A DNA stretch of 63,153 nt from a virus. Lineage: Duplodnaviria; Caudoviricetes. The translations under genes were made by a program, and so were the position numbers. This document shows positions 18,301-51,877 of the stretch, piece after piece. The notes below the pieces were generated by a model. The model ran no database searches, was not told the origin of the DNA, and was given only the letters and a program-made list of their open reading frames with translations. The stretch lies in IMG/VR virus record IMGVR_UViG_3300042881_003513, positions 1 to 63,153 of that record; one strand, given 5' to 3'. The number at the start of each line of letters is the position of its first letter. The first letter of the stretch is position 1.

Positions 18301-21300
18301 GCGGACGTGCGCGAGGTTGCGGAAATCTCACCCGACGGGCAGACGTTCCAGAACAAGGCGAAATTCGTCGAGTTCAAGAACATGCAGAGCCTTATCACGA
18401 TGTTCCGACGGTATGTGGACATCCAGCGCCAGGAGCAACTGAACCTTCCGGTCCCGCCCCTCTTTGGCGGCAAGATTCAGAACATCGTGTTCCAGCCGAC
18501 TCAGGTTGTTCAGGACTACATGGCCGAGGTCGTCGAGCGCGCGGAGGCGCTGCGCGGCGGGAAAGTGGATCCGAGGGTGGACAACTGGCTCAAGCTGAAC
18601 ACGGACGCCCGAAAGATCAGCACGGACCCGCGGTTGATTGACGCGAATCTGCCGGACGATCCTGAATACAAATCCTCGCGCATCGCGAAGAACACCTACG
18701 AAATCTGGAAGGCGAACGACTACCGCAAGGGCACGCAGATCGTATTTTGTGACCTGTATTCCAACAAGGTCGAGCGCGCCAGGAAGAATGCCTTCGGGGA
18801 GCCGGAGCGTTACAAGCGCGGACCGAAACGCGGGCAGCCCATCGTCGAGAAAGTTGAACTGTTCAACGTGTTCACCGACATGAAGGACAAGCTGATCCGC
18901 ATGGGCGTGCCGGAGGACCAGATCGCCATCATCCACGATTACGAGAAGGATGAGGACAAGGAGGAACTGAAAAGCAACTTCAACGCCGGCAAGATTCGCG
19001 TGCTTCTCGGCACAACGATGAAGCTCGGCACCGGCATGAATCTTCAGCGGCGGATGGTCGCGGTTCACAGCATGGACGCCAATTATCGCCCTGACCAGAT
19101 GACGCAGCGCGAGGGCCGCGGCATCCGGCAGGGAAACCTTTTCCACGAGGCGACTATCGGCGGCAAGAAGGCGCCGGGACGGATGCCGCAGCAACCGAGC
19201 TACGAACTCAGCAAGGACGGCGCGCTCACGACCGGGCCGGGCGGAAAATTCGGCCCTTTCAACATCATCATCACGCGCAACGCGGTAGAGCGCACGCTGG
19301 ACAGCCGTATCTACCAGACGATCACGACGAAAACGAAGATCGTCGAGGATCTGCTGAACGGAGATTACAAGGGCGACACCGCTTCCGACATCAGCGACGC
19401 CGAACTGCGCGGGCAGGAAATGATTGCCGCGGCGAGCGGGAACCCGCTGGTCATGGAGCGCTTCACGCTCGAAAACGAAGTGCGCGATCTGAAGATCAGT
19501 CAGGAGGACTTTGACAGGCGACAGGCGCGAATCCGAAAGGAAATCCGCGAACTCACAAGCGGCATCGAGGAAAATGATCGCGCCATCCCGCATGTGGACG
19601 CGCTTCGGGATGCCCACCGCGCCGCCGACGCCGACATTGATCGCCGGGTCAAGGAGGGCGAGGAGGCCAAGCAAAAGGAACTTTCGGACAAGCATGTATT
19701 CGACCCGGAGACGCCTTTCGTCGTGACTCGGGACGTGAAGAAAAAGGGAAAGCAAACCGAGCTTGAGCTTGCGAAGGAAAAGATCGGAGAGGGCGAGAAG
19801 GAGGAAGTCCCGATGACGATTCTGGACATGCTCAAGGAGCCGCTGAAGAAGACGAAGAACAACCCGGACGGCGAACTCGAATTGCGCGCCTTCGGATTGA
19901 ATGGGCGACTCACGCGGAAATCCGAGCGCATTGAGGCGGCGCAAAGTCTCACGGGAGAATCACGCCTCCGCCACACGTTCAGTTGGAATTACACCGGGGC
20001 CAGCGCGTCGAAGTTTGAATTTGCGACGCAATACAACGACGAGGCGCCAGAGCTTTACAAATACTCAGGAGATAGCCCGCTGCCGAAGTTCAAGGAGCAG
20101 CGCGATTACCTCATCGAGCGCGCCGCGCATCAGTGGCTTTACGACAACGCGAGGCAGACCGATGTTGAAGTGGGCGGAACTCGCTTCACGACATTGCAGG
20201 AGGCAGTCAAGGCACTTGAGCCAAAGCTGAACGCGCTGAAGAAAGGCGAATCGCTTTCGTTCAAGGAGAACGGCGTGGATGTGAGCGTGAAGGCGGAGGA
20301 AAAGAAATCGCTCACCGAGGACGAGAAGAAGAACGCCGACATGCTCGGTGTTGTTCCGATGCTCTATCACGCCAATTTCCCGGCGCTGAAGGACGTTGGT
20401 GCGCAGGCTTACAATCCGCTCGCTTCAAGTGATGCCAGCCAACTGATTTGGCACATCGCCAATTCCCTGAAGTGGATCCCGTCGTCGGAGCAGATTCAAA
20501 AGAACGTCGCCGATCAGAAGAATCAGTTGAAGATGAAGCAGGACGCAGTTCAGACGGCGTTCCCGGAGGCGGATCAACTGGACGAGAAACAGGCGCGACT
20601 CGCGGAGGTGGTGCGTCTCACATCCGGCGATCCGCACGCGCGAACCGCGGATCCGAATGACGATGACGGGCAGATTGCTGACGACGGAAGCGGCGAAACC
20701 TTCTCCGCCGCCGCGCCGGAACGCCGCGCCACCGACGCCGTGGCAGCAGGCGCGAAGGGGCGCGAGGAGACGAAGGAAGACCGCAAGGCGGCGCAGGCCG
20801 CCACGTTCGCGACGAAGCCCCCGGGTGTCGCGTCGCAGATTTGGGATGCCGTCAAGACCGCTGGCAGCGCGACGAAAAGGTGGTGGGGCGAGATGCCAGC
20901 CTACGACACGATTGACAAGGCGATCGGCCAATGGCTCGGGGCAGGGGACAGCGCACCGCTCAAGGGCACCGACATCGTGATCCCCGGCAGACAGAAGGCC
21001 GCGCACGAATCCCGCAAGCTCGTGGAGACGATCGTGAAGCAATTCCCGAACGTGCTCACACGCCAGGCGATCAGCCGCTACATGGAGGCCGACGGCGACA
21101 AGGCCACGCTGCAAAAGTGGGCGGACAAGTCGAAGCCGGAAATGAAGGCGGTGTATGAGCGCGCGCTGAACCTGAACGCCGCGGAGAAGGCGATGGCGGA
21201 CACGGCCAAGACGTTCTTCAAGGAGAAGGGCGAGGAGGCGCAAAAGCTCGGGCTGCTCGGCAACCTGCTGGAGAACTACGTCACGCACTTTGTCGAGAAG

Positions 21301-41950: not shown

Positions 41951-42205
41951 ATGACCACCGCGCCCATCTGGAAGCAGTTCAATGACTGCAAAACAATCGC
42001 TGACGCCGTGCGCGTGTCACACGCAATCTTTCAGGCCGTGGCCGACAACGGATTCTTCCGCGGTGAACCACTCGCTACTGTGCCGCGCCCGATTCGTCGC
42101 CCCGATGATTTGAAGGGGTGGAAGAAGAAAGTGCTGAAATGGACGCGCACGCTGCCCGCCTCCCTCCTCGCTCACTTCAAGCAAATCCACACACTCACAA
42201 AATGA
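41951..42205 (+). CDS. Hypothetical protein
   Basis: ORF with A/C-rich leader. Confidence 0.5.
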   Translation: MTTAPIWKQFNDCKTIADAVRVSHAIFQAVADNGFFRGEPLATVPRPIRRPDDLKGWKKKVLKWTRTLPASLLAHFKQIHTLTK

Positions 42206-42306
42206 ACCCGCTATCACCACTCTGGAACCGCGCCCGAATCGCCATCGCGCTCGGTGCCGTCCTCGCCATCGTCGTCGCAACTCAAATCCTCGTGAACCGC
42301 AAATGA
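42202..42306 (+). CDS. Small TM peptide
   Basis: ATGA overlaps on both sides; one TM helix. Confidence 0.45.
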   Translation: MNPLSPLWNRARIAIALGAVLAIVVATQILVNRK

Positions 42307-42587
42307 CTCTCGCCGACGCCGAAATCAAAACCGGACTCCAAGGCCGCGAAGTGCCGAGGATCGACCGGGAGAAGTTTAGCATGGGGCCAGCGCAGGCCGA
42401 CCGCTTCAACTCCGTCGGCGATCCGCACCGATGCCAGCTTGGGAAGTGGGTGCTGGAGAAGGGCGTCGTGACGCTCAAGGATAACGACGGCACCTATTAC
42501 AAGGCGTGGTGGCAGGATCACATTTTCCACCTTGTCGGCTACGGCCCGACGTTCGCCGACGCCTGCGAAATGGCGCTCGGCAAGTAA
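42303..42587 (+). CDS. Hypothetical protein
   Basis: Coupled ORF, GC3-rich. Confidence 0.55.
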   Translation: MTLADAEIKTGLQGREVPRIDREKFSMGPAQADRFNSVGDPHRCQLGKWVLEKGVVTLKDNDGTYYKAWWQDHIFHLVGYGPTFADACEMALGK

Positions 42588-42616
42588 CTCAACAACCAAC
42601 CAACCACACAACCACA

Positions 42617-43531
42617 ATGTCAGACCAACAACTCGCAGCTACCACCAACAAACCGAGCGCCCTCGCAGTCATGGCCGCGCGCTTCTCGCTTGAACCGAGC
42701 AAGCTCCTCTCCACGCTCAAGGCGACCGTATTCAAGGGCGCGTCGGACGACGAGATGTGCGCGCTCGTCGTCGTCGCCAATGAATATGGGCTGAACCCGC
42801 TCACGAAGGAAATCTACGCCTTCCCCGCCAAGGGCGGCGGCATCGTGCCCGTCGTCTCGATTGACGGCTGGATCAACCGCATGAACTCGCATCCGCAGTT
42901 CGACGGCATCGAGTTCGCCGACAGCTTCGACGCCGCCGGAAAGCCGGTGAGCGTCACAGCGTCCATCTTCCGAAAGGATCGCACGCGCCCGACCATCGTG
43001 ACCGAATACTACGGGGAGTGCTACCGCAGCTCCGATCCGTGGAATAAGTGCCCGGCGCGGATGCTCCGGCATAAGGCGCTCATGCAGTGCGTGCGCGTGG
43101 CGTTTGGCTTTGCTGGCGTGCATGACGAGGACGACGCAGCCGCGATCACTTCATCTGTGACGATCTCCGAAATCCCGCGCGCCCAACTCACTGACACGCG
43201 CGCAGTCGAGGCAGAAGTGATCCCGCCGGACAAGCGTCCCGATCCGCGCCCGAAGGCAGAGAAGCCCAAGGCGAAGCCCGAACCCGCGCCCGAAAAGACG
43301 CCGGCACCCGCGAGTGATCCCGCTCCCGCTCCCGAAACTCCCCTCGGAAAGCTGCGCGCGATGCTCGCGGAAGGCGGATGGACCGATGACGAATGCGTGA
43401 AACTCGCGATCTCGGTGTTCCCGGCTCTCAAGCACATCAAGACCGTGGACGAGATCCCGGCCTCGAGGATCGCTGACATCATCGAGGACTGGGCCACCGC
43501 CGAGGGCGCGATGAAGACGATCAGGGGGTAG
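42617..43531 (+). CDS. bet: RecT/Red-beta family ssDNA-annealing recombinase
   Basis: YGLNPLTKEIYAFP.KGGGIVPVVSIDGW, HPQFDG, PW...P.RMLRHKA.MQC.R.AFG. Confidence 0.9.
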   Translation: MSDQQLAATTNKPSALAVMAARFSLEPSKLLSTLKATVFKGASDDEMCALVVVANEYGLNPLTKEIYAFPAKGGGIVPVVSIDGWINRMNSHPQFDGIEFADSFDAAGKPVSVTASIFRKDRTRPTIVTEYYGECYRSSDPWNKCPARMLRHKALMQCVRVAFGFAGVHDEDDAAAITSSVTISEIPRAQLTDTRAVEAEVIPPDKRPDPRPKAEKPKAKPEPAPEKTPAPASDPAPAPETPLGKLRAMLAEGGWTDDECVKLAISVFPALKHIKTVDEIPASRIADIIEDWATAEGAMKTIRG

Positions 43532-43533
43532 CC

Positions 43534-43734
43534 ATGCCCGAAGGCAAAAGGATCACCACGCTGGAGCAACTCGCCGCGGCGAGCGCGGCGAAGAAGGCGA
43601 TTGTCACACGCACTCAGTTCTTCACCAACCGGCACATGCCCGCTGCCTTTATCCTCAATATGTCCGGCAGCGTGCTCCACTGCATGATGAGGCAAGGAAT
43701 GTTCATCTACACCCCGAAAAAATCCGAACCATGA
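43534..43734 (+). CDS. Hypothetical protein
   Basis: Coupled small ORF. Confidence 0.5.
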   Translation: MPEGKRITTLEQLAAASAAKKAIVTRTQFFTNRHMPAAFILNMSGSVLHCMMRQGMFIYTPKKSEP

Positions 43735-44864
43735 TCAGATCATCCACATCCCCATCCAATTTGCACAGGCGCGTGCGCTGCCCTGGCTCGCACGCGGCTG
43801 AATTGGGCCTGCCCGAGCAGAACAGCGAATACGCCGAGGAAGGCACCCGCCTGCACGCCGCGCTGGAAGACAGCGCGGGATGCGAAGGACTCGACGAAAA
43901 GCAGATCGAACTCGTGCTTTCGACACGGGAAATCTTCGCCGAGGTCATCGAGCGCACGGTCGCTGCGATGGCGATTCCGCCGGATGCACCGTTCACAGAG
44001 GGCTACGAGCGCGAGCTTCGCGTGCGGAGCAAGCTGCGCACGGTGATGATCGGCCATTGCGACCATTGGCGCTACTACCCCGATCAGAAGGTGCTGGTGA
44101 TCACGGACGCCAAGTTCGGATTCATCGAAGTCACGCCGGCCCCGCTTAACCTTCAACTGCGCGCATACGCGGTGATGGGCTCACAGGAGTGGGATGTTGA
44201 ACATGCCGTCGTCGCCATCGCGCAGCCTCGCGCCGGCATGATCGACGACGCCGAGAAACTGACGATCGCGCAGTATGACCGCGCCGACCTCGCCCTAGCT
44301 CACGCGCAGATTCTTGAATGGGAGTGCGAATGGTTGAAGCCGTTCGCGCCGCGCGTGCCTTCCGAGGATGCGTGCAGGTATTGCAAGGCCAAGCTGCTTT
44401 GCAATCAGTACGCCGAGCGGATGGGATCGCTGAAGGGTGATGTCGTCGCCGGGATTGCTGATCTGCCGGAGGATCGGTTTGCCCTGCTTTTCGAGGCGCT
44501 GAAAATCGCGGCGAAAGCCGACACGCAAAAAGCAATCTTGGCCGAGGCCCGCGTGCGCGTCGCCGAGGGGCGGCTACCCGGCTACCGACTCAAGCCGAAC
44601 GCAGCGCGACGGTCGATCACCGACAACGCGAAGGCGTCGGCGATCCTTCGGGACGGGCTTGCGTTCACGCAGGATGAGATCGCGGAAGCGAGTTCGCTTT
44701 CACTCGGCGAGGCCGTGACCGTGCTTCGCCGCAAAGTGAAGTTCAAAAACGAGGCCGAGGCGACCAAGTGCCTGCGCGACACGCTGGCGTCGGTGATCGA
44801 ACTCAAAACGCCGGAACCGAGCGTGGTTCCGGTTTCATCGCATGATGCTGCGAGGACTGTGTAG
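43731..44864 (+). CDS. PD-(D/E)XK exonuclease, DUF2800/Cas4-like
   Basis: SPS...CPGS, AEEGTRLH, GHCD, DAKFG, QLRAYA, CRYCKAK..C. Confidence 0.85.
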   Translation: MIRSSTSPSNLHRRVRCPGSHAAELGLPEQNSEYAEEGTRLHAALEDSAGCEGLDEKQIELVLSTREIFAEVIERTVAAMAIPPDAPFTEGYERELRVRSKLRTVMIGHCDHWRYYPDQKVLVITDAKFGFIEVTPAPLNLQLRAYAVMGSQEWDVEHAVVAIAQPRAGMIDDAEKLTIAQYDRADLALAHAQILEWECEWLKPFAPRVPSEDACRYCKAKLLCNQYAERMGSLKGDVVAGIADLPEDRFALLFEALKIAAKADTQKAILAEARVRVAEGRLPGYRLKPNAARRSITDNAKASAILRDGLAFTQDEIAEASSLSLGEAVTVLRRKVKFKNEAEATKCLRDTLASVIELKTPEPSVVPVSSHDAARTV

Positions 44865-44982
44865 CGATGAAGCTCAAGGGATGCACCGGGAACGCGCTCC
44901 GAAACGGGACTGACTTCATGACTACCAACACGCCTCCTCAACTGAACGCCAGGGTGCCGTCCGTATCATCCGCTGGTTCGGA
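44859..44982 (-). other. attC-1 (degenerate, distal)
   Basis: AGC-N6-GCTCAAG-GGATG-CACC ... GGTG-C-CGTCC ... N5-GTTCGG; L-box pairing decayed. Confidence 0.5.
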
Positions 44983-45934
44983 GCCGGATTTAGTCGGCGC
45001 GAGCACACGATGCGATGGGAGCCGTGGCGGTGCGCGTGGTGTGCGGTCGGATTCAGATTTGGCACCGGACAAGAGGCCCAATGGAGTCAGCGTGGCGCTT
45101 GCTTCCGCGCAAGGTAGTCCGGTGCCATTCACTTTGCTGGCTGGCGACTGCCGCGAGACTTTGCGCGGGCTGCCGGCCGCGTGCGCGCAATGCTGCGTGA
45201 CCTCGCCGCCATACTGGAATCTCCGCGACTACGGGCACGCCGACCAAATCGGGCAGGAGGCGACGCCAGAGGAATACGTTGCCAGTCTCGTGAAGGTGTT
45301 TCGCGAAGTCCGGCGGGTGCTCGCGCCCGATGGGACACTGTGGCTGAACCTCGGAGATACCTACTGGAAGAAGCAACTCGTCGGCATCCCGTGGCGCGTG
45401 GCGCTTGCTTTGCAGGCGGATTCGTGGTGGCTGCGCTCGGAAATCATCTGGCATAAAGAAAACGCGATGCCGGAGAGCACGACGGACCGGCCAAGTCGTA
45501 GCCACGAAACAATCTTTCTGTTCGGTGCCTCCGAGAGCTACCGTTACGACGCAGAAGCAATCAAAGAGCCGATCCAGTCAGACCGCGCGCCGAGCCGAAA
45601 GGCGAAGGCCACTGGCGCGGGGCACTCCGAACTTCGAGGAGGCACACCCTACGACGGGAGCGGGACGCATCGCAACCGCCGCACGGTCTGGACGGTGCCA
45701 ACGGCACCGTATCCGAATGCTCACTTCGCCGTTTATCCGGCGACTCTCATCGCGCCTTGTATCCTCGCCGGGAGTCAGCCCGGCGAGGTGGTGCTCGATC
45801 CTTTCGGCGGGAGTGGAACGACGGGAGCCACCGCGCTGACTCTCGGGAGAAAAACGATCCTGTGCGAACTCAACCCGGAATACGCGAAGCTCATCGAGCA
45901 ACGCACGACAACCACCTTTGGATTGCCTCTATGA
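44918..45934 (+). CDS. DNA methyltransferase, N4-C/N6-A family (beta class)
   Basis: GDC, VTSPPYW, HFAVYP, VLDPFGGSGTT; alternative ATG at 44867. Confidence 0.9.
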   Translation: MTTNTPPQLNARVPSVSSAGSEPDLVGASTRCDGSRGGARGVRSDSDLAPDKRPNGVSVALASAQGSPVPFTLLAGDCRETLRGLPAACAQCCVTSPPYWNLRDYGHADQIGQEATPEEYVASLVKVFREVRRVLAPDGTLWLNLGDTYWKKQLVGIPWRVALALQADSWWLRSEIIWHKENAMPESTTDRPSRSHETIFLFGASESYRYDAEAIKEPIQSDRAPSRKAKATGAGHSELRGGTPYDGSGTHRNRRTVWTVPTAPYPNAHFAVYPATLIAPCILAGSQPGEVVLDPFGGSGTTGATALTLGRKTILCELNPEYAKLIEQRTTTTFGLPL

Positions 45935-46152
45935 ACCGTCCAAATTACGACAACGTAGCTGACGCAATACGCGGCGCAATGGCTAGGCTGTGCCGGGCTG
46001 TATCACGTCGAATGATGCCGGATGAACCAACGCCGGAAGATAGGATCGAGATGCTGGAGGCATACGCGGCGGCGTGCGCCTTGCTGGAGTCATGCCAGCC
46101 GAACGACAAGCTCTGCCGCGAGCAGGGCGGAAAGGACTCCGATGGCAGGTGA
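45931..46152 (+). CDS. Hypothetical cassette protein
   Basis: ATGA-coupled; ends inside attC-2. Confidence 0.55.
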   Translation: MNRPNYDNVADAIRGAMARLCRAVSRRMMPDEPTPEDRIEMLEAYAAACALLESCQPNDKLCREQGGKDSDGR

Positions 46153-46191
46153 ACCGCGGCGACATGGAGACGGCGCAGCGCATGGTTCGCT
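46098..46191 (-). other. attC-2
   Basis: GCCGAAC-N5-GCT-CTGCCG ... CGGCG-C-AGC-N5-GTTCGCT. Confidence 0.7.
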
Positions 46192-46375
46192 TCCTCGCCT
46201 ACCCGCAAGACCTTGGGTTGCGAGTCAGCAATACTCCATGCGCTTCATCCTCTCACGAGACAACGAAATACTGTGGCGGTGTGACTTCGTGCCGATGCCG
46301 GTACTCAAGGCGATGGTGGACGCCGCCAATGCAGCAATGGAAGCGAACGAAAAGCTCACCGACGCGCCGGGATAG
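46142..46375 (+). CDS. Hypothetical cassette protein
   Basis: Starts in attC-2, ends in attC-3 (ANEKLTDAPG). Confidence 0.5.
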   Translation: MAGEPRRHGDGAAHGSLPRLPARPWVASQQYSMRFILSRDNEILWRCDFVPMPVLKAMVDAANAAMEANEKLTDAPG

Positions 46376-46461
46376 CGCGTCAAAAACACACTGACTCTTA
46401 TGAAAAAGATACCCATCAAAAACACGAAGAAGGCGCGTTCGAGTGCAGCGCATGGTTCGGC
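46342..46461 (-). other. attC-3
   Basis: AGCGAAC-N5-GCT-CAC-CGA-CGCGCC ... GGCGCG-T-TCG-A-GTG-C-AGC-N5-GTTCGGC. Confidence 0.9.
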
Positions 46462-46663
46462 GCACTCGTTGGCTGCAACTATTGCCGCCGCCCTGTTCAC
46501 GAGCGGGGACGGCAAGAGGGCGTCCAGACTACATTTCATCCTCGAAAGCGGGGACGTGTGGGGCGGCTGGAGTGAAGCGGCAGTCGCAGCACAGATCGAG
46601 AAGCTGCTCAGTGCGCCGAACGATGGAACTTACGGACAGACCCCTCACAACCCGACCACATGA
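46400..46663 (+). CDS. Hypothetical cassette protein
   Basis: Starts in the attC-3 loop, ends in attC-4. Confidence 0.6.
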   Translation: MKKIPIKNTKKARSSAAHGSAHSLAATIAAALFTSGDGKRASRLHFILESGDVWGGWSEAAVAAQIEKLLSAPNDGTYGQTPHNPTT

Positions 46664-46800
46664 GCACGCCAAGAATCTGCCCAAGCTGCAATAACTACCT
46701 GTTTGACGACGAAGCGCCGAAATGCGTCTGCGCAAATAACTGCGCGCCCGAACCGGAGCGTTCGAGTGAGGGGGCTGTTACGTGCAGTGACTTGATCTGC
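46615..46800 (-). other. attC-4 (GAT/ATC core)
   Basis: GCCGAAC-N6-ACT-TACG-GACAG-A-CCCCTCAC ... GTGAGGGG-G-CTGTT-A-CGTG-C-AGT-N5-GATCTGC. Confidence 0.8.
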
Positions 46801-46977
46801 GAATGGGAAGCCGCGCTCTCGACGGCAGAGAAGATGATGAAGGAGACCGAACGCAAGGAAGGCTCCACATACTACTACTGGCAGGGGCGATACGATGAGG
46901 CCGAAAGCGCGTTGGATCGGGCGCGGAGACATTCGCAGATCGGTGAGCACAGCAACACGCCGACACCACACCAATGA
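46660..46977 (+). CDS. Hypothetical cassette protein with Cys cluster
   Basis: CPSC...CVC encoded in the attC-4 loop; ATGA-coupled at both ends. Confidence 0.6.
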   Translation: MSTPRICPSCNNYLFDDEAPKCVCANNCAPEPERSSEGAVTCSDLICEWEAALSTAEKMMKETERKEGSTYYYWQGRYDEAESALDRARRHSQIGEHSNTPTPHQ

Positions 46978-47050
46978 GCACTCCACCTGACCTACTCACT
47001 CCGCACGGCAGCACGACAACAGGCGTGTTTGCTGCTGCGGCTGGTTATCT
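46935..47050 (-). other. attC-5
   Basis: GCAGATC-N5-GCA-CAGCA-ACACGCC ... GGCGTGT-T-TGCTG-C-TGC-N5-GTTATCT. Confidence 0.88.
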
Positions 47051-47951
47051 TTCCGCCGTTGAAGTTCACGACCCTGCCACGAAGCAGAGTGCATCTTGGA
47101 GCGGGGGGACTTCTAAAACACAAGCCGAAGGCCCAATCCACATCATCTCGCTCGGCGCGGGCGTGCAAAGCTCTACGATGGCGCTGATGGCGGCGCACGG
47201 CGAGATCACGCCGATGCCCACGGCGGCGGTGTTCGCGGACACACACGCGGAACCGGAAAGCGTGTATCGCTGGCTCGAATGGCTGGAAACGAAACTGCCG
47301 TTTCCGGTGCATCGCGTGAGCAAAGGCGACCTCGCCCGCGTGTCGCTGACTGTGCGCGACAAGAAAGACGGCACCGGAAAATGGGTGAAGTCCCTAATCC
47401 CGGCGTTCATCCAGAATCCAGACGGAAGCCGTGGAATCATGGGGCGTGCCTGCACGTTCGATTACAAGGTGATGCAGTTGGAAGCTGCGGCGAAACGAAT
47501 CGGCGAGATCAAGCGGAACCAAAAGACGGTCGGCGTGATCCAGTGGATCGGAATCAGCCTCGACGAAGCGCATCGCATGAAGCCTGCACGCAAGGCGTGG
47601 GTGGAGCATCGCTGGCCGCTGATAGACGCGGGCATGAAGCGGCACGATTGCTTGCGGTGGATGGAGCGGATGGGCTACCCGAAGCCTCCGCGCTCGGCCT
47701 GCATCTACTGCCCGTTTCACAGCGACGCTGAATGGCGAAGATTGAAGGACGAGGAGCCGAAAGAGTTTGCTCGCGCGGTGCAATTCGAGCGCGACCTGCA
47801 ACACGCGAAATCTCAGACGGACAACCAGCGTGGAAAGCCGTTCCTGCACAACTCACTGAAACCGCTCGACCAGGTGGATCTGAGCACGGACATCGAACGC
47901 GGACAGGGCGAGATGTTCGGAAACGACTGCACGGGGCTTTGCGGCGTATGA
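46974..47951 (+). CDS. PP-loop / PAPS-reductase-like phage protein
   Basis: ISLGAGVQSS, FADT..EP, WIGISLDE, RWPL, PPRSACIYCPF, terminal CTGLC. Confidence 0.8.
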   Translation: MSTPPDLLTPHGSTTTGVFAAAAGYLSAVEVHDPATKQSASWSGGTSKTQAEGPIHIISLGAGVQSSTMALMAAHGEITPMPTAAVFADTHAEPESVYRWLEWLETKLPFPVHRVSKGDLARVSLTVRDKKDGTGKWVKSLIPAFIQNPDGSRGIMGRACTFDYKVMQLEAAAKRIGEIKRNQKTVGVIQWIGISLDEAHRMKPARKAWVEHRWPLIDAGMKRHDCLRWMERMGYPKPPRSACIYCPFHSDAEWRRLKDEEPKEFARAVQFERDLQHAKSQTDNQRGKPFLHNSLKPLDQVDLSTDIERGQGEMFGNDCTGLCGV

Positions 47952-48109
47952 CTCGTGCAACCGCCAGCGTCCGCTTTCGAGGAATGCGTGTGGGGCTTCC
48001 GAAGGGTAGCGCCGACCCTCGGCACTCTGAGTCGGGGAACAATCAAGCTCAGAGACCGCGAGCCGGGAGCGGGGCATCTGAAACAATACCGGCATCCAAA
48101 ATACCATGA
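47948..48109 (+). CDS. Short coupled ORF running into attC-6
   Basis: ATGA overlaps at both ends; may be a cassette remnant. Confidence 0.35.
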   Translation: MTRATASVRFRGMRVGLPKGSADPRHSESGNNQAQRPRAGSGASETIPASKIP

Positions 48110-48162
48110 AACACCGAATCCAAACCGCCAAGCTCGCGGTTCTCTGCAGCGCCTTGTTAGCC
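48034..48162 (-). other. attC-6
   Basis: GGGGAAC-N6-GCT-CAGAG-ACCGCGAGC ... GCTCGCGGT-T-CTCTG-C-AGC-N5-GTTAGCC. Confidence 0.92.
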
Positions 48163-48378
48163 CTTGGCGCTTGCTCGAAAGACCCAATCAGCAAGGCCGG
48201 AACGAACAATCCTGAAATCACCGTTGAACTCCTATTCGAGAAGGACGGCGTGAAGGTCTATCGCTTCACGGACTCGGGTAGAAGCATCTACTACACCGAT
48301 GCGCGTGGGCGCACGGACTGGTCAGTGAACCAAGGCAAGAACGGCGTCCGTCACTTCGGCGTGGAGACAGCGCAATGA
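48106..48378 (+). CDS. Lipoprotein, DUF4884-like
   Basis: LGAC lipobox; VELLFEKDGVKVYRFTD.GRSIYYT. Confidence 0.7.
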   Translation: MKHRIQTAKLAVLCSALLALGACSKDPISKAGTNNPEITVELLFEKDGVKVYRFTDSGRSIYYTDARGRTDWSVNQGKNGVRHFGVETAQ

Positions 48379-48382
48379 AAAG

Positions 48383-48472
48383 GGCTAACGAATAAGCTCA
48401 TGGACACGCCTCACTTCGCTCTCGAATTACAGGAACCGCTCAAGGCGTGTTCCATGCAGCGCATGGGTCTGC
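48383..48472 (-). other. attC-7 (GGT/ACC core)
   Basis: GGCTAAC-N6-GCT-CATGG-ACACGCCT ... AGGCGTGT-T-CCATG-C-AGC-N5-GGTCTGC. Confidence 0.9.
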
Positions 48473-49239
48473 GAACGCCCGGACAAGAGCCGCGCGTGGC
48501 ACGCACGAAAGATGCGGTGCGGAGCGGAGTGGGCGGAGTTCTGCGCTCCGTGTATGAGGACCAGCACGACATCCTCGAAGCCATCCGGCAACTGCACTGC
48601 CCCGAAGGCTACGAAGCAGATTTGACGTTTGGAAATGGTAGCTTCTGGAAGCGCCTGCCGCGCCCGAAATACTGCTTCGACGTGACGCCGCTGCATGAGG
48701 GCGTGGTGCAAGCGGACTCGCGGATGCTGCCGCTCGCGCCAGCGAGCCTCGGCAACGCCGTGTTCGATCCGCCGTTCCTGACCTACGTGCAAGCCGGACG
48801 CGCCCACAAAGAGGGCAAGGTGGCGATGACTGCGCGCTTCGGTGGATACTACCGCTACGACGAACTGGAAGACCACTACCGGGACACAATCAGCGAGTGC
48901 TACCGAGTCCTGCGCCCGAAGGGCAAACTGGTCTTCAAGTGCCAAGACATCATCCACAATCACCGGATGCACTGCACGCACGTCAACGTCATCCAGATGG
49001 CCGAAATCGAAGGCTTCCGGCTCGCGGATTTGTTCGTGCTTCCGGCCCGCCATCGGATGCCGTCGCCGCAACGCGGCACCCAACGGCACGCACGAATCTT
49101 CCACAGTTACTTTTTGGTGTTCGAGCGCGATGCCTCTGCGGGCGGCGGGGGTGCGGAGCTGGGGGCAAATAAGAGCAAGCGTGGAACGAAGAGCGGCGCG
49201 CGTTCGCAGACCGAAAAGCTCACCGACGCGCCGAGATAG
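48400..49239 (+). CDS. Putative amino DNA methyltransferase
   Basis: DLTFGNGSFW (SAM-binding), VFDPPF (catalytic), ECYRVLRPKG.LVFKCQD. Confidence 0.75.
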   Translation: MDTPHFALELQEPLKACSMQRMGLRTPGQEPRVARTKDAVRSGVGGVLRSVYEDQHDILEAIRQLHCPEGYEADLTFGNGSFWKRLPRPKYCFDVTPLHEGVVQADSRMLPLAPASLGNAVFDPPFLTYVQAGRAHKEGKVAMTARFGGYYRYDELEDHYRDTISECYRVLRPKGKLVFKCQDIIHNHRMHCTHVNVIQMAEIEGFRLADLFVLPARHRMPSPQRGTQRHARIFHSYFLVFERDASAGGGGAELGANKSKRGTKSGARSQTEKLTDAPR

Positions 49240-49324
49240 CGCCTCGCAAACACACTGACTTTATGAAAAAGAAAACCGTCAAAAACACGAAGAAGGCGCG
49301 TTCGAGTGCAGCGCATGGTTCGGC
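49206..49324 (-). other. attC-8 (near copy of attC-3)
   Basis: Stems identical to attC-3; differences only in the loop. Confidence 0.9.
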
Positions 49325-49511
49325 GATTCCCGCGTCGAAGCTACTACGAGCCGAAGCAACCCGCCTCGACGTGCTGAAACACGCGATGCCAGATGCAGCC
49401 GAGGACATGATAGCGGCTCAGGTGTGGGCCTACAACATGGCGGCGGCATACCTCGACGCTCTAGGCGCGCCGGAGAAACTGGTGCGCTACGTGCCTTCGC
49501 CGAACAGATGA
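49263..49511 (+). CDS. Hypothetical cassette protein
   Basis: Starts in the attC-8 loop; stop lies in attI. Confidence 0.6.
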   Translation: MKKKTVKNTKKARSSAAHGSAIPASKLLRAEATRLDVLKHAMPDAAEDMIAAQVWAYNMAAAYLDALGAPEKLVRYVPSPNR

Positions 49512-49536
49512 TTCCGCAGAAAAAAATCCGCATATC
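49499..49536 (-). other. Putative attI site
   Basis: Minus strand GCGGAAT-catct-GTTCGGC (imperfect inverse core, 5-bp spacer, core) with repeated TGCGGA; no attC hairpin. Confidence 0.65.
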
Positions 49537-49617
49537 ATGAAAAAGACAGAACTGATCGAACAGCTACAAATCGCGATTCGGCGCAAGCACTACAACTACG
49601 CGACCGTGAACCAATGA
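49537..49617 (+). pseudogene. intI: Truncated integron integrase N-terminus
   Basis: MKKTELIEQLQIAIRRKHYNYATVNQ* resembles the IntI start LLDQ.R..IR..HYS..T; canonical position next to attI. Confidence 0.7.
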
Positions 49618-51170
49618 TCGCCCGCCCTTACCAATCCGCCTCCGTCGAGAGCGTAGAGCAGGCATTTCGCGAGTTTTCCAAAGTGCTCGGCGTGGCTGCG
49701 ACCGGGGCCGGAAAGACGATCGTGTTCTCGATGTTCACGCAGCGGCACCTTGCGGAATCGGACACGAACCGCGTGCTCATCATCGCGCACCGCGAGGAAC
49801 TGCTGACTCAGGCGGCGCAGAAACTCATGCGCGCGACGGGTATCAACTCCGAACTGGAGCGCGCGGATGCGCGCGCAAGCCTCGACGCCCGCGTGGTGGT
49901 CGCGAGCATTCAGACACTCTGCCGACGCTTCGAGCGGTTCCCGGCGAACCATTTCACGCGGATCATCGTGGATGAATGCCATCACGCACTGGCGGACAGC
50001 TACCAGCCGGCGCTCCAGTATTTCCTCGGCGGCAGCGCGAAAGTCTTGGGCGTGACTGCAACGCCGGGAACGAAGGGCAAGAAGGCGCTCGGGAATTTCT
50101 TCGAGACGATCGCTTTCGAGGTCGGGCTGATTGAGTTGATCCGCGCGGGCTACCTATCCCCGATCAGCGTCAAGAGCTTCCCGCTCATCGGCGGGGGCGC
50201 GGAACCGATCTCGTTTGCGGTCAAGAATGGCGACTACGATCAGGAGCAGGTGGATCACGCCCTCGATCCCTACCTTGAGAGCATCGTTGCGCGGCTCGGC
50301 GCGGAGATTGGCGACCGTAAGACGCTCGTTTTTCTGCCGCTCATCAAGACGGTGGAGCGGTTCGTGGCGCTGTGCAATGCGGCGGGACTGAAGGCCGCGG
50401 GCGTGAGCGGCGTGAGCGAGGAACGGGCAGACATCCTTTCCGCGCACGGCACGGACTTTCAGATCCTCGCGAACTCGATGTTGCTGACCGAGGGCTATGA
50501 CGACCCGGCGATCTCGGCGATGATGATCCTGCGGCCGACGCGCTCAGAGATTCTTTTCTCGCAAATGGTGGGGCGCGGCACGCGAGTCTATTGCCCGTGG
50601 GGATGCACCGAACGATGCACGCACGGATCGCGGAAGCGCAACCTGCTGTTGTTGGATCCGCTTTGGCTCCACGAGGACATGAACCTGGTGCGACCGGCGA
50701 ACCTTGTGACCGGACGAGACGAGGACCGCAGGAGCATGAGCGAGCGCGTGGCGGCGAAGCAGGAGGAACTCGATCTTCTGAACATGCTCGCCGACGCGGA
50801 GCATGACCGGGAAAAATCACTCGCCGAGAAGCTGGCGCGCATGGAGAAGCGAAAGACGAAGACGATCAGCGTGGAGGAGTGGGCGGTGCTCGCGCACGCG
50901 CCGAACATTGCGGATTTTGAACCGACGATGCGGTGGCACGAATCGCCGATCTCGCCAAAGCAGGCGGAAATGCTGGTGCGCTTCGGCTTCGACGCCGGGA
51001 GCGTCCGGGGCCGCGGGCACGCATCGGCGCTGCTAGACGTGTTCTTTTCCCGCCGGAAGCAGGGACTCGCGACCGTGGCGCAGGTGCGGCTGATGACGAG
51101 GATGAAGCACCCGAACCCTGAGACGGAGACTTTCGCCGGCGCGAAGGCGTGGCTCGACCAACGATTTTAA
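49614..51170 (+). CDS. Superfamily 2 DExH helicase
   Basis: RPYQ, ATGAGKT, DECHH, TAT, TEGYDDP, QMVGRGTR. Confidence 0.92.
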   Translation: MIARPYQSASVESVEQAFREFSKVLGVAATGAGKTIVFSMFTQRHLAESDTNRVLIIAHREELLTQAAQKLMRATGINSELERADARASLDARVVVASIQTLCRRFERFPANHFTRIIVDECHHALADSYQPALQYFLGGSAKVLGVTATPGTKGKKALGNFFETIAFEVGLIELIRAGYLSPISVKSFPLIGGGAEPISFAVKNGDYDQEQVDHALDPYLESIVARLGAEIGDRKTLVFLPLIKTVERFVALCNAAGLKAAGVSGVSEERADILSAHGTDFQILANSMLLTEGYDDPAISAMMILRPTRSEILFSQMVGRGTRVYCPWGCTERCTHGSRKRNLLLLDPLWLHEDMNLVRPANLVTGRDEDRRSMSERVAAKQEELDLLNMLADAEHDREKSLAEKLARMEKRKTKTISVEEWAVLAHAPNIADFEPTMRWHESPISPKQAEMLVRFGFDAGSVRGRGHASALLDVFFSRRKQGLATVAQVRLMTRMKHPNPETETFAGAKAWLDQRF

Positions 51171-51182
51171 GAAAACCACAAA

Positions 51183-51371
51183 ATGAACCTGCCAACCTAC
51201 AAGGAATACTCGTACGACGAGCCGATCCAGAAACAGACCGCGATCCACATGAACCACCTGCTCGATTTCATCCACAACGCCAACCCGCCTTTGAAGGTGA
51301 AGGAAGCGGCGAAATTCATCGCTGACGAAATGGCGATGCACCGCGAGCTGCGCGAGGAGGACGAGGTATGA
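51183..51371 (+). CDS. Hypothetical protein
   Basis: A/C-rich leader; coupled to the next gene. Confidence 0.55.
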   Translation: MNLPTYKEYSYDEPIQKQTAIHMNHLLDFIHNANPPLKVKEAAKFIADEMAMHRELREEDEV

Positions 51372-51877
51372 GCGATCTTTTTGGCGGAAAAAAAGACGAC
51401 TGGGCGACCCCGCAGTGGTTGTTCGACGCGCTCGATGATGAGTTTGATTTCGGGCTGGACCCGTGCTGCTACGCGCACACGGCGAAGTGCGATCTGTTCT
51501 TCACCGAGGCGGACGACGGGCTGGCGCAGTCATGGCATGGCCGGAGCGTGTACGTGAATCCGCCCTATTCCGAGATGAACGACTGGATGAGGAAGTGCGC
51601 GGACGAGTCGCGCAAGGGCGCGAAGGTGATCGTGGCGCTCGTGCCGGCGCGCACGGACACGAAGGCGTGGCAGGATACCGTGCTCCGAACCGCGGACGAG
51701 ATCCGATTCATCCGCGGGCGCGTGCAATTTGTCGGCGCGGAGGCAGGGGCGAAATTCCCGAGCGCACTGGTGATCTGGCGGCACCGGCTGAACCTGCTCG
51801 ACCGGAACCCGTCGCGGCATTCGCTGAAGGTGGGCGGTTTCGACATTCGCGCGCTGAAGCCGAAGGGGGCAAAATGA
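51368..51877 (+). CDS. Phage N6-adenine DNA methyltransferase (Dam-like)
   Basis: DWATPQWLF, LDPC, DDGL, VNPPYS, LVPARTDT, IRFIRGR. Confidence 0.9.
   Translation: MSDLFGGKKDDWATPQWLFDALDDEFDFGLDPCCYAHTAKCDLFFTEADDGLAQSWHGRSVYVNPPYSEMNDWMRKCADESRKGAKVIVALVPARTDTKAWQDTVLRTADEIRFIRGRVQFVGAEAGAKFPSALVIWRHRLNLLDRNPSRHSLKVGGFDIRALKPKGAK

What the first reader, a model, noticed from the sequence alone, without database searches (positions are those of the whole stretch)
44859..49617. A phage-encoded integron cassette array in the replication/recombination operon
Seen in the sequence: eight imperfect palindromes (44859, 46098, 46342, 46615, 46935, 48034, 48383, 49206) with attC anatomy, i.e. R box, 5-6 nt unpaired spacer, L-box stem with extrahelical bases on one arm and a variable loop, all oriented on the minus strand. 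Each site's right core is the reverse complement of the NEXT site's left core, as expected for cassettes inserted as circles: GTTCGCTTCC/GGAAGCGAAC (10 bp), GTTCGGCGCACT/AGTGCGCCGAAC (12), GATCTGCGAATG/CATTCGCAGATC (12), GTTAGCCCTT/AAGGGCTAAC (10), GGTCTGCGAACGC/GCGTTCGCAGACC (13), GTTCGGCGA/TCGCCGAAC (9). The array ends in an attI-like site and an intI stub. Integrons are established as chromosomal and plasmid elements and are rarely reported in phages; here one appears domesticated as a shuffling system for phage accessory genes.
Basis: partly seen in the sequence, partly recalled or inferred. Interest (0 to 1): 0.97.

Follow-up and report, generated by a model that had tools for sequence, protein, structure and literature searches.

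The report
Integron cassette array in lake phage
A complete uncultured lake phage carries a genuine integron-type array of swappable gene cassettes, mostly DNA-modification genes, that has lost its integrase and whose genes face the opposite way to those of bacterial integrons.

Summary
After the last core come an attI-like remnant and a 26-codon intI stub (49537-49617). The phage has no integrase, so this is a CALIN.

Sibling arrays in other viral contigs end the same way, but in a full integron integrase (TIGR02249, up to 347 bits). The stem covaries across 57 distinct sites.

Near-identical phages (98-99.9% flanks) carry three different cassette sets, with breakpoints at the AAC core. One cassette is 99.55% identical to the attI-proximal cassette of a different, intI-bearing viral contig that encodes a distantly related head protein.

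Site orientation relative to intI is canonical, checked against a class 3 integron. The cassette genes, however, lie on the recombining (bottom) strand. They start in the attC loop, cross the crossover with AAC as a codon, and stop in the next site.

Integrons and CALINs in phages are published (Qi 2023, PMC9892861). My searches found no description of the inverted, frame-locked layout. This scan has noted reversed phage cassettes on other DNA (e1-5971010, e1-6146848).

Verdict: new variant of a known kind.

The parts
42506..43531 (+). RecT/Bet-like single-strand annealing protein (upstream context)
   Evidence: PF03837 2.3e-25; phrog_252 2.2e-66
43731..44864 (+). DUF2800 / PD-(D/E)XK nuclease (upstream context)
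   Evidence: PF10926 1.8e-25, PF12705 7.1e-11
44867..45934 (+). N6/N4 DNA methyltransferase, left of the array.
   Evidence: PF01555 4.7e-51; R1 best nearby match 11.8 bits, E 0.45
45931..46152 (+). 73-aa ORF that runs through the left core of site 1 in the AAC frame and stops in its loop
   Evidence: read; frame test
46095..46194 (+). attC site 1 (weak stem, probably decaying); left core ends 46104, right core starts 46185
   Evidence: R1 23.8 bits, E 1.5e-4, held out of the model
46142..46375 (+). cassette ORF, 77 aa, unknown function; start lies in the loop of site 1
   Evidence: no Pfam family
46339..46464 (+). attC site 2
   Evidence: R1 118.4 bits, in the model; circle fold closes a 12-bp R helix
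46400..46663 (+). cassette ORF, 87 aa, unknown; its N-terminus is encoded by site 2 and shared with the 82-aa ORF
   Evidence: repeats D1, D2
46610..46805 (+). attC site 3, long 115-nt loop, non-canonical GAT core
   Evidence: by eye; circle fold gives a 12-bp R helix plus a bulged stem; missed by R1
46660..46977 (+). cassette ORF, 105 aa, Cys-rich N-terminus encoded in the loop of site 3
   Evidence: only a weak TPR_12 match
46930..47053 (+). attC site 4
   Evidence: R1 115.7 bits, in the model
46974..47951 (+). PAPS-reductase-like gene. The cassette ends do not match (GTTATC.. versus ..GGGGAAC). Its last ~100 nt are homologous to the end of the MT-A70 cassette of L001, so it is probably two cassettes fused by a deletion.
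   Evidence: phrog_424 2.3e-50
48029..48165 (+). attC site 5
   Evidence: R1 21.8 bits, E 6e-4, held out
48106..48378 (+). cassette ORF, 90-aa DUF4884 lipoprotein; its signal peptide is encoded by the loop and 3' arm of site 5
   Evidence: PF16225 1.2e-7
48380..48478 (+). attC site 6, non-canonical GGT core with a 13-nt partner
   Evidence: R1 37.2 bits, E 2e-8, held out; circle fold 13-bp R helix, dG -31.7 versus -16.4 in the array
48400..49239 (+). cassette ORF, 279-aa DNA methyltransferase. Absent from L001/L002, and replaced by another methyltransferase in L275.
   Evidence: phrog_24333 5.7e-71; contig joint 48388->49212 in run X12
49200..49327 (+). attC site 7, about 90% identical to site 2
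   Evidence: R1 114.9 bits, in the model
49263..49511 (+). cassette ORF, 82 aa, the attI-proximal cassette
49497..49536 (+). last left core (ends 49505) plus a 31-nt attI-like remnant (AAC-AGATGATTCC..)
   Evidence: same position, and the AAC-A.(G/A)TGATT motif, as in 3 intI-bearing arrays (L094, L199, L205)
49537..49617 (+). 26-codon intI N-terminal stub; its TGA overlaps the helicase ATG
   Evidence: ranks 1 of 2349 against an HMM of 6 viral IntI, 7.8 bits versus 3.9 for the next, aligned to HMM positions 1-25; no match in curated libraries
49614..51170 (+). SF2 helicase (right flank)
   Evidence: PF04851 1.8e-26

Best explanation
This is an integron cassette array of a phage-adapted kind that has lost its integrase: a CALIN with an attI remnant and an intI stub. 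Seven attC sites delimit seven cassettes inside the early replication/recombination operon of a complete lake-water phage.

Shown: the sites belong to the same family as sites next to true integron integrases. Their stem is kept by compensatory changes. Each cassette's two ends are complementary. Whole cassettes differ between near-identical phages, with breakpoints at the AAC core. One cassette is shared at 99.55% identity with an intI-bearing viral contig that encodes a distantly related head protein.

Inferred mechanism: the + (coding) strand folds as the recombinogenic bottom strand. An integron integrase supplied in trans, by a co-infecting intI-bearing phage or by the host, cuts between AA and C. 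Cassettes then leave as circles and enter at attI or at another attC.

Unlike bacterial integrons, each cassette gene lies on the bottom strand. Its ribosome site and start codon sit in the attC loop. It reads out of its own attC and crosses the crossover with AAC as a codon, so any pair of cassettes stays in frame. It stops inside the next attC, often at an ATGA overlap with the next start. The array is therefore read as part of the phage operon from upstream, not from a promoter at attI.

The cargo (N6/N4 and MT-A70 methyltransferases, a PAPS-reductase-like enzyme, a GNAT enzyme, a lipoprotein) points to swappable counter-restriction and host-interaction genes.
For: Site family: R1 found 44 matches (E<=0.1) in 16 of 79 viral loci fetched by a 15-mer. 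In 79 viral loci fetched independently through IntI it found 40 matches (E<=0.01); 39 were on the intI strand and 38 were upstream of intI. In 66 bacterial IntI loci, 11 of its 15 matches lie on the intI strand, all of those upstream of the IntI match.

Integrases: array-adjacent ORFs score 341, 347.4, 312.4, 266.6 and 283.2 bits on TIGR02249 (cut-off 265); one scores 255.5, just under.

Structure: over 57 distinct sites, 96.0% of cells are paired. There are 194 double-sided changes against 44.1 in shuffles (0 of 500 shuffles reach it). Slid controls give 26.9-44.1% paired. All 13 pairs of the L stem covary. Two extra bases are conserved on the 3' arm: C in 51 of 57 and T in 51 of 57.

Canonical control: in plasmid pUL3AT, turned so that intI3 is on +, the annotated cassette genes are on the minus strand. 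By eye, the attC has its extra G on the 3' arm of the + strand, 3 bp before a 5-nt spacer and GTTAGCC. This is the same geometry as here.

Cassette ends: 6 of 7 window cassettes have 9-13 nt of complementarity, and 6 of 7 fold a 9-13 bp closing helix once circularised.

Turnover: the window, L001/L002 and L275 share 98-99.9% identical flanks and the same stub, but hold three different cassette sets. Their junctions lie at AAC|spacer. Contigs of other lake runs show the 48388->49212 joint, and loose ends at 46357, 46941, 47046 and 48405.

Shared cassette: L001 6596-7266 is 99.55% identical to L137/L200, where it abuts attI and an intact IntI-type integrase gene (255.5 bits on TIGR02249, just under the 265 cut-off).

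Inverted, frame-locked genes: Pfam or PHROG hits fall on the + strand for 6 cassette genes. With AAC read as a codon, the next stop lies inside the site in 53 of 57 sites (28 and 24 in the other frames), and the frame is open for at least 120 nt upstream in 41 of 57 (14 and 10). An independent viral set gives 23 of 25 (8, 12) and 20 of 25 (7, 6). Bacterial sites give 5, 7, 3 of 11 and 3, 1, 2 of 11.

Phage nature: terminase, portal and major head protein PHROG hits; CheckV completeness 100%.
Against: The window has no tyrosine recombinase (0 matches to PF00589 or TIGR02249), and no IntI-dependent event has been observed directly.

The stub matches no curated family; its support is a 7.8-bit match to my own 6-sequence HMM plus its position.

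R1 was built from these same sites, and the covariation alignment is fitted to it. R1 does not detect the clinical attC sites of pUL3AT at significance (5.6 and 4.1 bits). The field's standard attC model could not be run.

One cassette (PAPS) has unmatched ends, site 1 has a poor stem and site 3 is missed by the model.

The L275 junction lies between two left cores that agree at 12 of 14 positions. A RecT-type short-homology deletion could therefore have made it, and RecT plus a nuclease are encoded just upstream.

The runs were held as contigs only, so circles could not be sought.
Confidence: 0.8

Rival explanations
1. Fossil array. The sites are integron-derived but are no longer recombined in this lineage. 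The differences between the window, L001 and L275 arose by homologous or short-homology recombination (RecT plus nuclease) with related phages, using the conserved attC sequences and similar cores as patches of homology.
For: There is no integrase in the phage. RecT and a PD-(D/E)XK nuclease lie directly upstream. Sites 2 and 7 are about 90% identical over 132 nt. The two left cores joined in L275 agree at 12 of 14 positions. Site 1 and the PAPS cassette look decayed.
Against: The loss or gain of the 279-aa methyltransferase cassette joins partners that share only about 5 nt (AC GAA), exactly at the core/spacer border. The cassette shared with an intI-bearing viral contig is 99.55% identical and is bounded at the cores. 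All three variants carry the same stub, so turnover came after the loss of intI.
Confidence: 0.2
2. RNA-level element. The hairpins exist mainly to structure the polycistronic mRNA, for translational coupling, occlusion of start codons, or processing. The cassette-like pattern would then be secondary.
For: Start codons and ribosome sites lie in the loops. Stops often overlap the next start as ATGA. The + strand, which is the transcript sense, is the strand that carries the extra bases. No promoter-like site was found, and terminator-like sites are no more frequent than in shuffles across 42000-51500.
Against: An RNA role does not explain why each gene's two ends are complementary over 9-13 nt. 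It does not explain why the same sites sit beside integron integrases, or why whole cassettes are swapped at the AAC core. No Rfam family matches. An RNA role may well exist in addition.
Confidence: 0.05
3. Chance palindromes in GC-rich coding DNA.
For: Many inverted repeats are listed in this region: 243 pairs at a low threshold.
Against: See the controls.
Confidence: 0.01

Closest known systems
Integrons and CALINs in bacteriophage genomes (Qi, Rajabal, Ghaly, Tetu, Gillings 2023, PMC9892861; I read the abstract, section 3.4 and searched passages)
   Same: attC clusters without an integrase in virulent and temperate phages. Cassettes that carry orphan DNA methyltransferases, including N6_N4_Mtase. 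Sites of the G|TTRRRY type.
   Different: That work covers 21 isolated phages, mostly with 2 or more sites each. Here the family is large: 318 IntI-encoding stretches in IMG/VR. The genes are inverted, and cassette turnover is seen between near-identical genomes.
Sedentary chromosomal integrons (Vibrio-type arrays with homogeneous attC sites); description recalled, not checked in a call
   Same: Long arrays of similar attC sites. Cassettes of mostly unknown or defence-related function. The right core belongs to the next cassette.
   Different: There the genes lie on the top strand, end before or in their attC, and are read from a promoter at the attI end; intI is divergent, with a long attI/promoter region (270 nt in the pUL3AT control). 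Here attI is about 23-53 nt long, and intI is the last gene of the same operon.
Inverted integron-integrase group (Treponema and others; Cury 2016, PMC4889954, passages only)
   Same: A departure from the standard relative orientation within an integron.
   Different: In that group the integrase gene is turned relative to the attC sites. Here attC versus intI is canonical, and it is the cassette genes that are turned.
Earlier notes of this scan on other DNA (e1-5971010, e1-6146848, e1-5769736 and others; unchecked AI notes)
   Same: Phage-borne arrays of attC-like hairpins with cassette-end complementarity. Two of the notes report genes facing backwards.
   Different: Several of those systems are said to use short Xer-like recombinases. 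Here the sibling arrays carry true IntI (TIGR02249 above its cut-off).

Membership tests
Integron (complete) | Adjacent integron integrase (tyrosine recombinase with the IntI-specific region; TIGR02249) | tested here: not met
   0 matches to PF00589 or TIGR02249 in the whole 63-kb record. Only a 26-codon N-terminal stub remains. The feature is met in sibling arrays: 5 of 6 integrases score above the cut-off.
Integron / CALIN | attC sites: imperfect palindrome with AAC/GTT cores, unpaired spacers, a bulged L stem and a variable loop | tested here: met
   7 sites. R1 recovers the held-out sites. Covariation gives 96% paired cells, and 0 of 500 shuffles reach the observed value. The geometry equals that of an annotated class 3 integron attC. 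The cores are looser than GTTRRRY in the window (GTTCGGC, GATCTGC, GGTCTGC) and closer to it in sibling arrays.
Integron / CALIN | Sites pass the field's standard attC model (IntegronFinder covariance model or HattCI) | not testable with these tools
   Rfam holds no attC family; there were 5 chance-level matches only.
Integron / CALIN | Cassette rule: the right core of a site is complementary to the left core of the next site | tested here: met
   6 of 7 window cassettes have 9-13 nt. 25 of 39 consecutive pairs reach at least 8 nt, against 53 of 3254 other pairings.
CALIN (Cury 2016) | At least two attC sites with no integron integrase nearby | tested here: met
Integron (complete) | attI site next to intI | tested here: inconclusive
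   A 31-nt stretch after the last AAC shares position and an AAC-A.(G/A)TGATT motif with 3 intI-bearing arrays. Its function was not tested.
Integron (complete) | Cassette genes on the top strand, expressed from a Pc promoter at the attI/intI end | tested here: not met
   Genes with Pfam or PHROG hits are on the bottom strand. See the frame test. There are 0 promoter-like sites in 42000-51500. In the pUL3AT control the genes are on the other strand.
Integron (complete) | Cassettes move as units by IntI-mediated recombination at G|TT (AA|C on the bottom strand) | tested here: inconclusive
   Comparative evidence only: three array variants, a shared cassette, and junctions at AAC|. There is no enzymatic test.
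Inverted integron-integrase group | [quoted passage not shown] | tested here: not met
   The model strand (bottom strand) equals the intI coding strand in 39 of 40 viral matches, as in pUL3AT.

The most novel reading that the evidence does not exclude
Lake phages run their own lineage of integrons, built for operon life. Genes sit on the recombining strand. The attC loop supplies the ribosome site, the start codon and the N-terminus. The crossover falls inside a fixed AAC codon, so any cassette can follow any other in frame. intI is the last gene of the operon. Integrase-less phages such as this one keep exchanging cassettes through IntI supplied by co-infecting phages. Together this forms a community-wide pool of counter-restriction genes. 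Because here the gene and its attC overlap, these cassettes may also show how cassettes are born.
Probability: 0.5. Interest if true: 0.85.

Novelty: new variant of a known kind. Interest (0 to 1): 0.74.

Why it matters
Integrons are known as bacterial gene-capture devices, and their presence in phages was reported only recently and as rare. This case adds four things.

- Uncultured phages hold many IntI genes (318 stretches in IMG/VR), with arrays of a consistent layout not described in the papers I could search.
- Cassette turnover is visible in nature between genomes that are otherwise 98-99.9% identical.
- One identical cassette sits in a different viral contig, next to an intact integrase.
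- The cargo is largely DNA-modification enzymes, so the array is a plausible fast-swap toolkit against host restriction.

The overlap of gene and attC, and the frame-locked crossover, make two questions directly testable. One is how cassettes are expressed without a Pc promoter. The other is the long-open question of how a gene acquires an attC.

Tried and rejected
Rfam scan of 43500-51000 at E<=10: 5 matches, all far below their gathering scores. Rfam has no attC family, so this says nothing about membership.

Helicase relatives L003-L080: 0 R1 matches in 78 loci; only L002, the same lineage, has them. The array is therefore not a feature of the wider helicase-defined group.

The DUF2800 scan of viral contigs returned only the contig of L001.

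Most of its 116 stretches are chance matches; 16 of the 79 loci searched held R1 sites.

R1 on pUL3AT: no significant match. The best (10.1 bits) lies inside intI3, and the two true attC positions score 5.6 and 4.1 bits. R1 is thus a model of this site family and not a general attC detector. I read the canonical geometry by eye.

Virus Rctr41k (KX853513.1): it has an IntI-like gene but only weak R1 matches, on the other strand and downstream (E 0.008 and 0.08). I did not pursue it.

Stub against the curated libraries: 0 families.

Major head protein against isolated phages: no match. The closest bacterial IntI are only 37-48% identical. The host remains unknown.

IntI tree (92 distinct sequences, FastTree, midpoint root): the 32 viral IntI that include all six array-linked ones group together, but with support of only 0.289. 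The bacterial set was fetched through similarity to one viral IntI, so sampling is biased. I draw no claim of monophyly.

No RNA holder was listed among the 24 runs. All four laid runs are contigs, so circles, strand and expression could not be examined. Parts without cover are not evidence.

No structure or complex prediction was attempted, and no use was made of the search for homologous proteins.

Literature: searches found Qi 2023 as the only paper on phage integrons. A search of its text for orientation, opposite, antisense, reverse and start codon gave nothing on inverted genes. Its supplementary tables, which list the 21 phages, were closed and may bear on that claim. Papers seen only as search listings are not used.

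Full report
WHAT IS THERE. The window is a whole IMG/VR virus record of 63,153 nt (CheckV completeness 100%, no end repeats), with 61.6% G+C. Most long ORFs lie on the + strand. It encodes terminase, portal and major head protein homologues. It occurs in lake-water metagenomes of 24 studies. Its head protein has no match among 50,697 isolated phage records.

The finding lies in the early replication/recombination block. In order this holds RecT (42506-43531), a DUF2800 PD-(D/E)XK nuclease (43731-44864), an N6/N4 methyltransferase (44867-45934), the array, and then an SF2 helicase (49614-51170).

THE OBSERVATION. All six quoted core pairs are exact. On the + strand each junction between genes reads as follows:
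- a left core ending in AAC (twice ATC or ACC);
- a 5-6 nt spacer;
- a 5' arm, mostly GCTCA...;
- a loop of 33-115 nt that holds the stop of the gene before and the ribosome site and ATG of the gene after;
- a 3' arm with two or three extra bases;
- a 5-nt spacer, mostly GCATG;
- a right core, GTT....

I built a covariance model, R1, from five sites. It recovered every held-out site except the long-looped one at 46615, and it found nothing else in the window below E 0.07. So there are seven sites, not eight.

The conserved 3' half is read in three different frames in different genes (AAHGS, QRMG, CSAL). It is therefore conserved as nucleic acid and not as protein.

IT IS AN INTEGRON SITE FAMILY. 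A scan of IMG/VR for a 15-nt motif brought in 79 loci. R1 found 44 sites in 16 of them, in arrays of up to 12 sites.

In contig L094 the last left core is followed 32 nt later by a 342-aa ORF. That ORF scores 341 bits on TIGR02249, integron integrase (cut-off 265). Five further array-linked integrases score 347.4, 312.4, 283.2, 266.6 and 255.5 bits.

An independent search with an alignment of these integrases found 318 IMG/VR stretches that encode relatives. In the best 79 new loci, R1 found 40 sites. Of these, 39 were on the integrase strand and 38 were upstream of the integrase gene.

R1 also finds sites beside IntI in Desulfobacterota, Nitrospirota and anammox genomes: 11 of its 15 matches lie on the IntI strand, all 11 upstream of the IntI match. 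Some of these sites are nearly the same in sequence as the phage sites.

Across 57 distinct sites, 96.0% of stem cells are paired. There are 194 double-sided changes against 44.1 in shuffles (0 of 500 shuffles reach it), and slid controls give 26.9-44.1% paired. This alignment is fitted to the model, which flatters the figure. Two extra bases are conserved on the 3' arm: a C three pairs from the spacer (51 of 57) and a T about six pairs further in (51 of 57).

THE CASSETTE RULE. The right core of a site is complementary to the left core of the next site. This holds over 9-13 nt for six of the seven window cassettes. Across all arrays it reaches at least 8 nt for 25 of 39 distinct consecutive pairs, against 3 of 58 same-site pairs and 53 of 3254 other pairings.

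I joined each cassette's own end to its own site, as in an excised circle. The + strand then folds into a closing helix of 9-13 bp, an internal loop and a bulged stem in six of seven cases. It gains 3 to 15 kcal/mol over the array context.

The exception is the PAPS-reductase cassette. Its last ~100 nt are homologous to the end of the MT-A70 cassette of L001 (85% identity). It looks like two cassettes fused by a deletion.

THE END OF THE ARRAY. After the last core (ending at 49505) come 31 nt and then a 26-codon ORF at 49537-49617. Its TGA overlaps the helicase ATG. Against an HMM of six viral IntI it ranks first of 2349 sequences (2000 shuffles plus 348 other small ORFs of the window). It scores 7.8 bits against 3.9 for the next, and it aligns to HMM positions 1-25. 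Curated libraries do not see it.

The 31-nt stretch shares its position and an AAC-A.(G/A)TGATT motif with the stretch between the last core and the intI start codon in L094, L199 and L205. Across the six arrays those spacings are 23-53 nt. The window has no tyrosine recombinase at all.

CASSETTES MOVE. L001 and L002 are 99.2-99.7% identical to the window on both sides but differ in between. Identity ends at 46357 and resumes at 49212, the core/spacer borders of sites 2 and 7. A metagenome contig, L275, is a third variant. After the non-cassette 73-aa ORF (45931-46152), which all three share, the arrays read:
- Window: 77 | 87 | 105 | PAPS | lipoprotein | MTase-279 | 82 | stub.
- L001: 77 | MT-A70 | 203 | 220 | 69+GNAT | PAPS | lipoprotein | 82 | stub.
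- L275: 77 | MT-A70 | 203 | 220 | lipoprotein | another N6/N4 MTase | 82 | stub (for the domains).

The junctions are exact. The sequence ..GGGCTAAC is followed by GAATAAGC (window), GAAAAGC (L001) or GCATAAGC (L275). The sequence ..GGCGGAGAAC is followed by GTCGCGG (L001) or AATCAAGC (L275).

Contigs of other lake runs show a joint from 48388 to 49212 that skips exactly the MTase-279 cassette (run X12, 255 nt on the shorter side). They also show loose ends at 46357, 46941, 47046 and 48405 that lead into other cassettes.

Most telling is L001 6596-7266, one site plus the 220-aa gene up to its left core. It is 99.55% identical to a stretch of another viral contig (L137/L200), whose head protein is only 29% identical to the window's. 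Homology stops at both ends of the cassette. In that contig the cassette is the last before attI and an intact IntI-type integrase gene (255.5 bits, just under the 265 cut-off).

All three variants share the same stub, so turnover came after the integrase gene was lost. I infer from this that IntI acts in trans, or that array segments come in from intI-bearing relatives.

ORIENTATION. As a canonical control I turned plasmid pUL3AT (class 3 integron) so that intI3 is on the + strand. Its annotated cassette genes, blaOXA-256 and aac(6')-Ib, then lie on the minus strand. Its attC carries the extra G on the 3' arm of the + strand, three pairs before a 5-nt spacer and GTTAGCC (read by eye).

The phage sites have the same geometry on the intI strand. 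Site versus integrase is therefore canonical. The + strand is the bottom strand, which established work holds to be the recombined one, cut at G|TT on the top strand (PMC9892861, section 3.4), that is AA|C on the bottom strand.

The genes, however, are on the + strand. This is shown by Pfam or PHROG hits for six cassette genes of the window, L001 and L275. In the window, 6 of 8 ORFs cross the next left core with AAC (or ATC or ACC) as a codon.

Across 57 sites, that frame has its next stop inside the site in 53 (28 and 24 in the other two frames). It is open for at least 120 nt upstream in 41 (14 and 10). Many of the stops are ATGA overlaps. An independent set of 25 viral sites gives 23 (8, 12) and 20 (7, 6). 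Eleven bacterial IntI-linked sites found with the same model show no preference: 5, 7, 3 and 3, 1, 2.

There are no promoter-like sites in 42000-51500, and terminator-like sites are no more frequent than in shuffles. The array thus reads as part of the phage operon, with intI (where present) as its last gene.

COMPARISON AND NOVELTY. Integrons and CALINs in phages are in print. Qi et al. 2023 report 21 isolated phages and 17 CALINs, methyltransferase cassettes, and five of six tested sites recombined by IntI1 (PMC9892861; I read the abstract and section 3.4).

The 'inverted integron-integrase group' is a different departure from the standard layout (PMC4889954, passages only). My searches found no description of cassette genes on the bottom strand, of a frame-locked crossover, or of a large phage IntI set.

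This scan has noted phage arrays with backward-facing genes on other DNA (e1-5971010, e1-6146848). Those are unchecked notes, not support.

I file the window's feature as a CALIN of integron origin. I do not file it as a complete integron, because it has no integrase and no Pc-type layout. I rate it a new variant of a known kind.

LIMITS. There is no enzymatic evidence. The model and the covariation alignment derive from the sites themselves. The standard attC model was not available. The stub's statistical support is modest. One junction (L275) could be a short-homology deletion. The host is unknown. The IntI tree does not settle whether the phage integrases form one clade (support 0.289).

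Noticed in passing
L004:744-1400 (relative with 87% helicase identity); also loose ends at window 49613 and 49658 in run X9: In this relative the helicase gene start is followed, after about 15 codons, by a ~560-nt insert that encodes an HNH-type endonuclease-like ORF. After it comes a second, divergent helicase N-terminus. The stub and array are absent upstream, so the helicase start is another mosaic breakpoint.
   Followed up: partly
window 9358-23256: A single 4632-aa ORF on the + strand, between the packaging genes and the portal gene. I did not analyse it.
   Followed up: no
window 46400-46460 and 49263-49323; L094:6247-6320: The attC loop and 3' arm encode a lysine-rich N-terminal peptide (MKK..KNTKKARSSAAHGS). 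Unrelated cassette proteins share it, and it recurs in a different contig (MKSKKKIERKKRGGSSRAAHGSA). It may be a by-product of the site, or it may have a function.
   Followed up: partly
L337 (KX853513.1, Virus Rctr41k) 4680-5678: A deposited phage record annotates as xerD a protein that is 40% identical to the phage IntI. It is preceded by a run of small co-directional ORFs. R1 gives only weak matches there, on the other strand and downstream.
   Followed up: partly
loci L377-L413 (18 viral contigs): A second, well supported (0.982) viral-only IntI clade sits nearer to IntI3 in the tree. Only 1 of its 18 members holds an R1 site, so its arrays, if any, use another attC type.
   Followed up: no
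window 51368-51877 and 44867-45934: Besides the cassette methyltransferase, the backbone carries a Dam-like methyltransferase (PF05869, 1.8e-33) and an N6/N4 methyltransferase. This phage therefore has at least three DNA methyltransferases.
   Followed up: no
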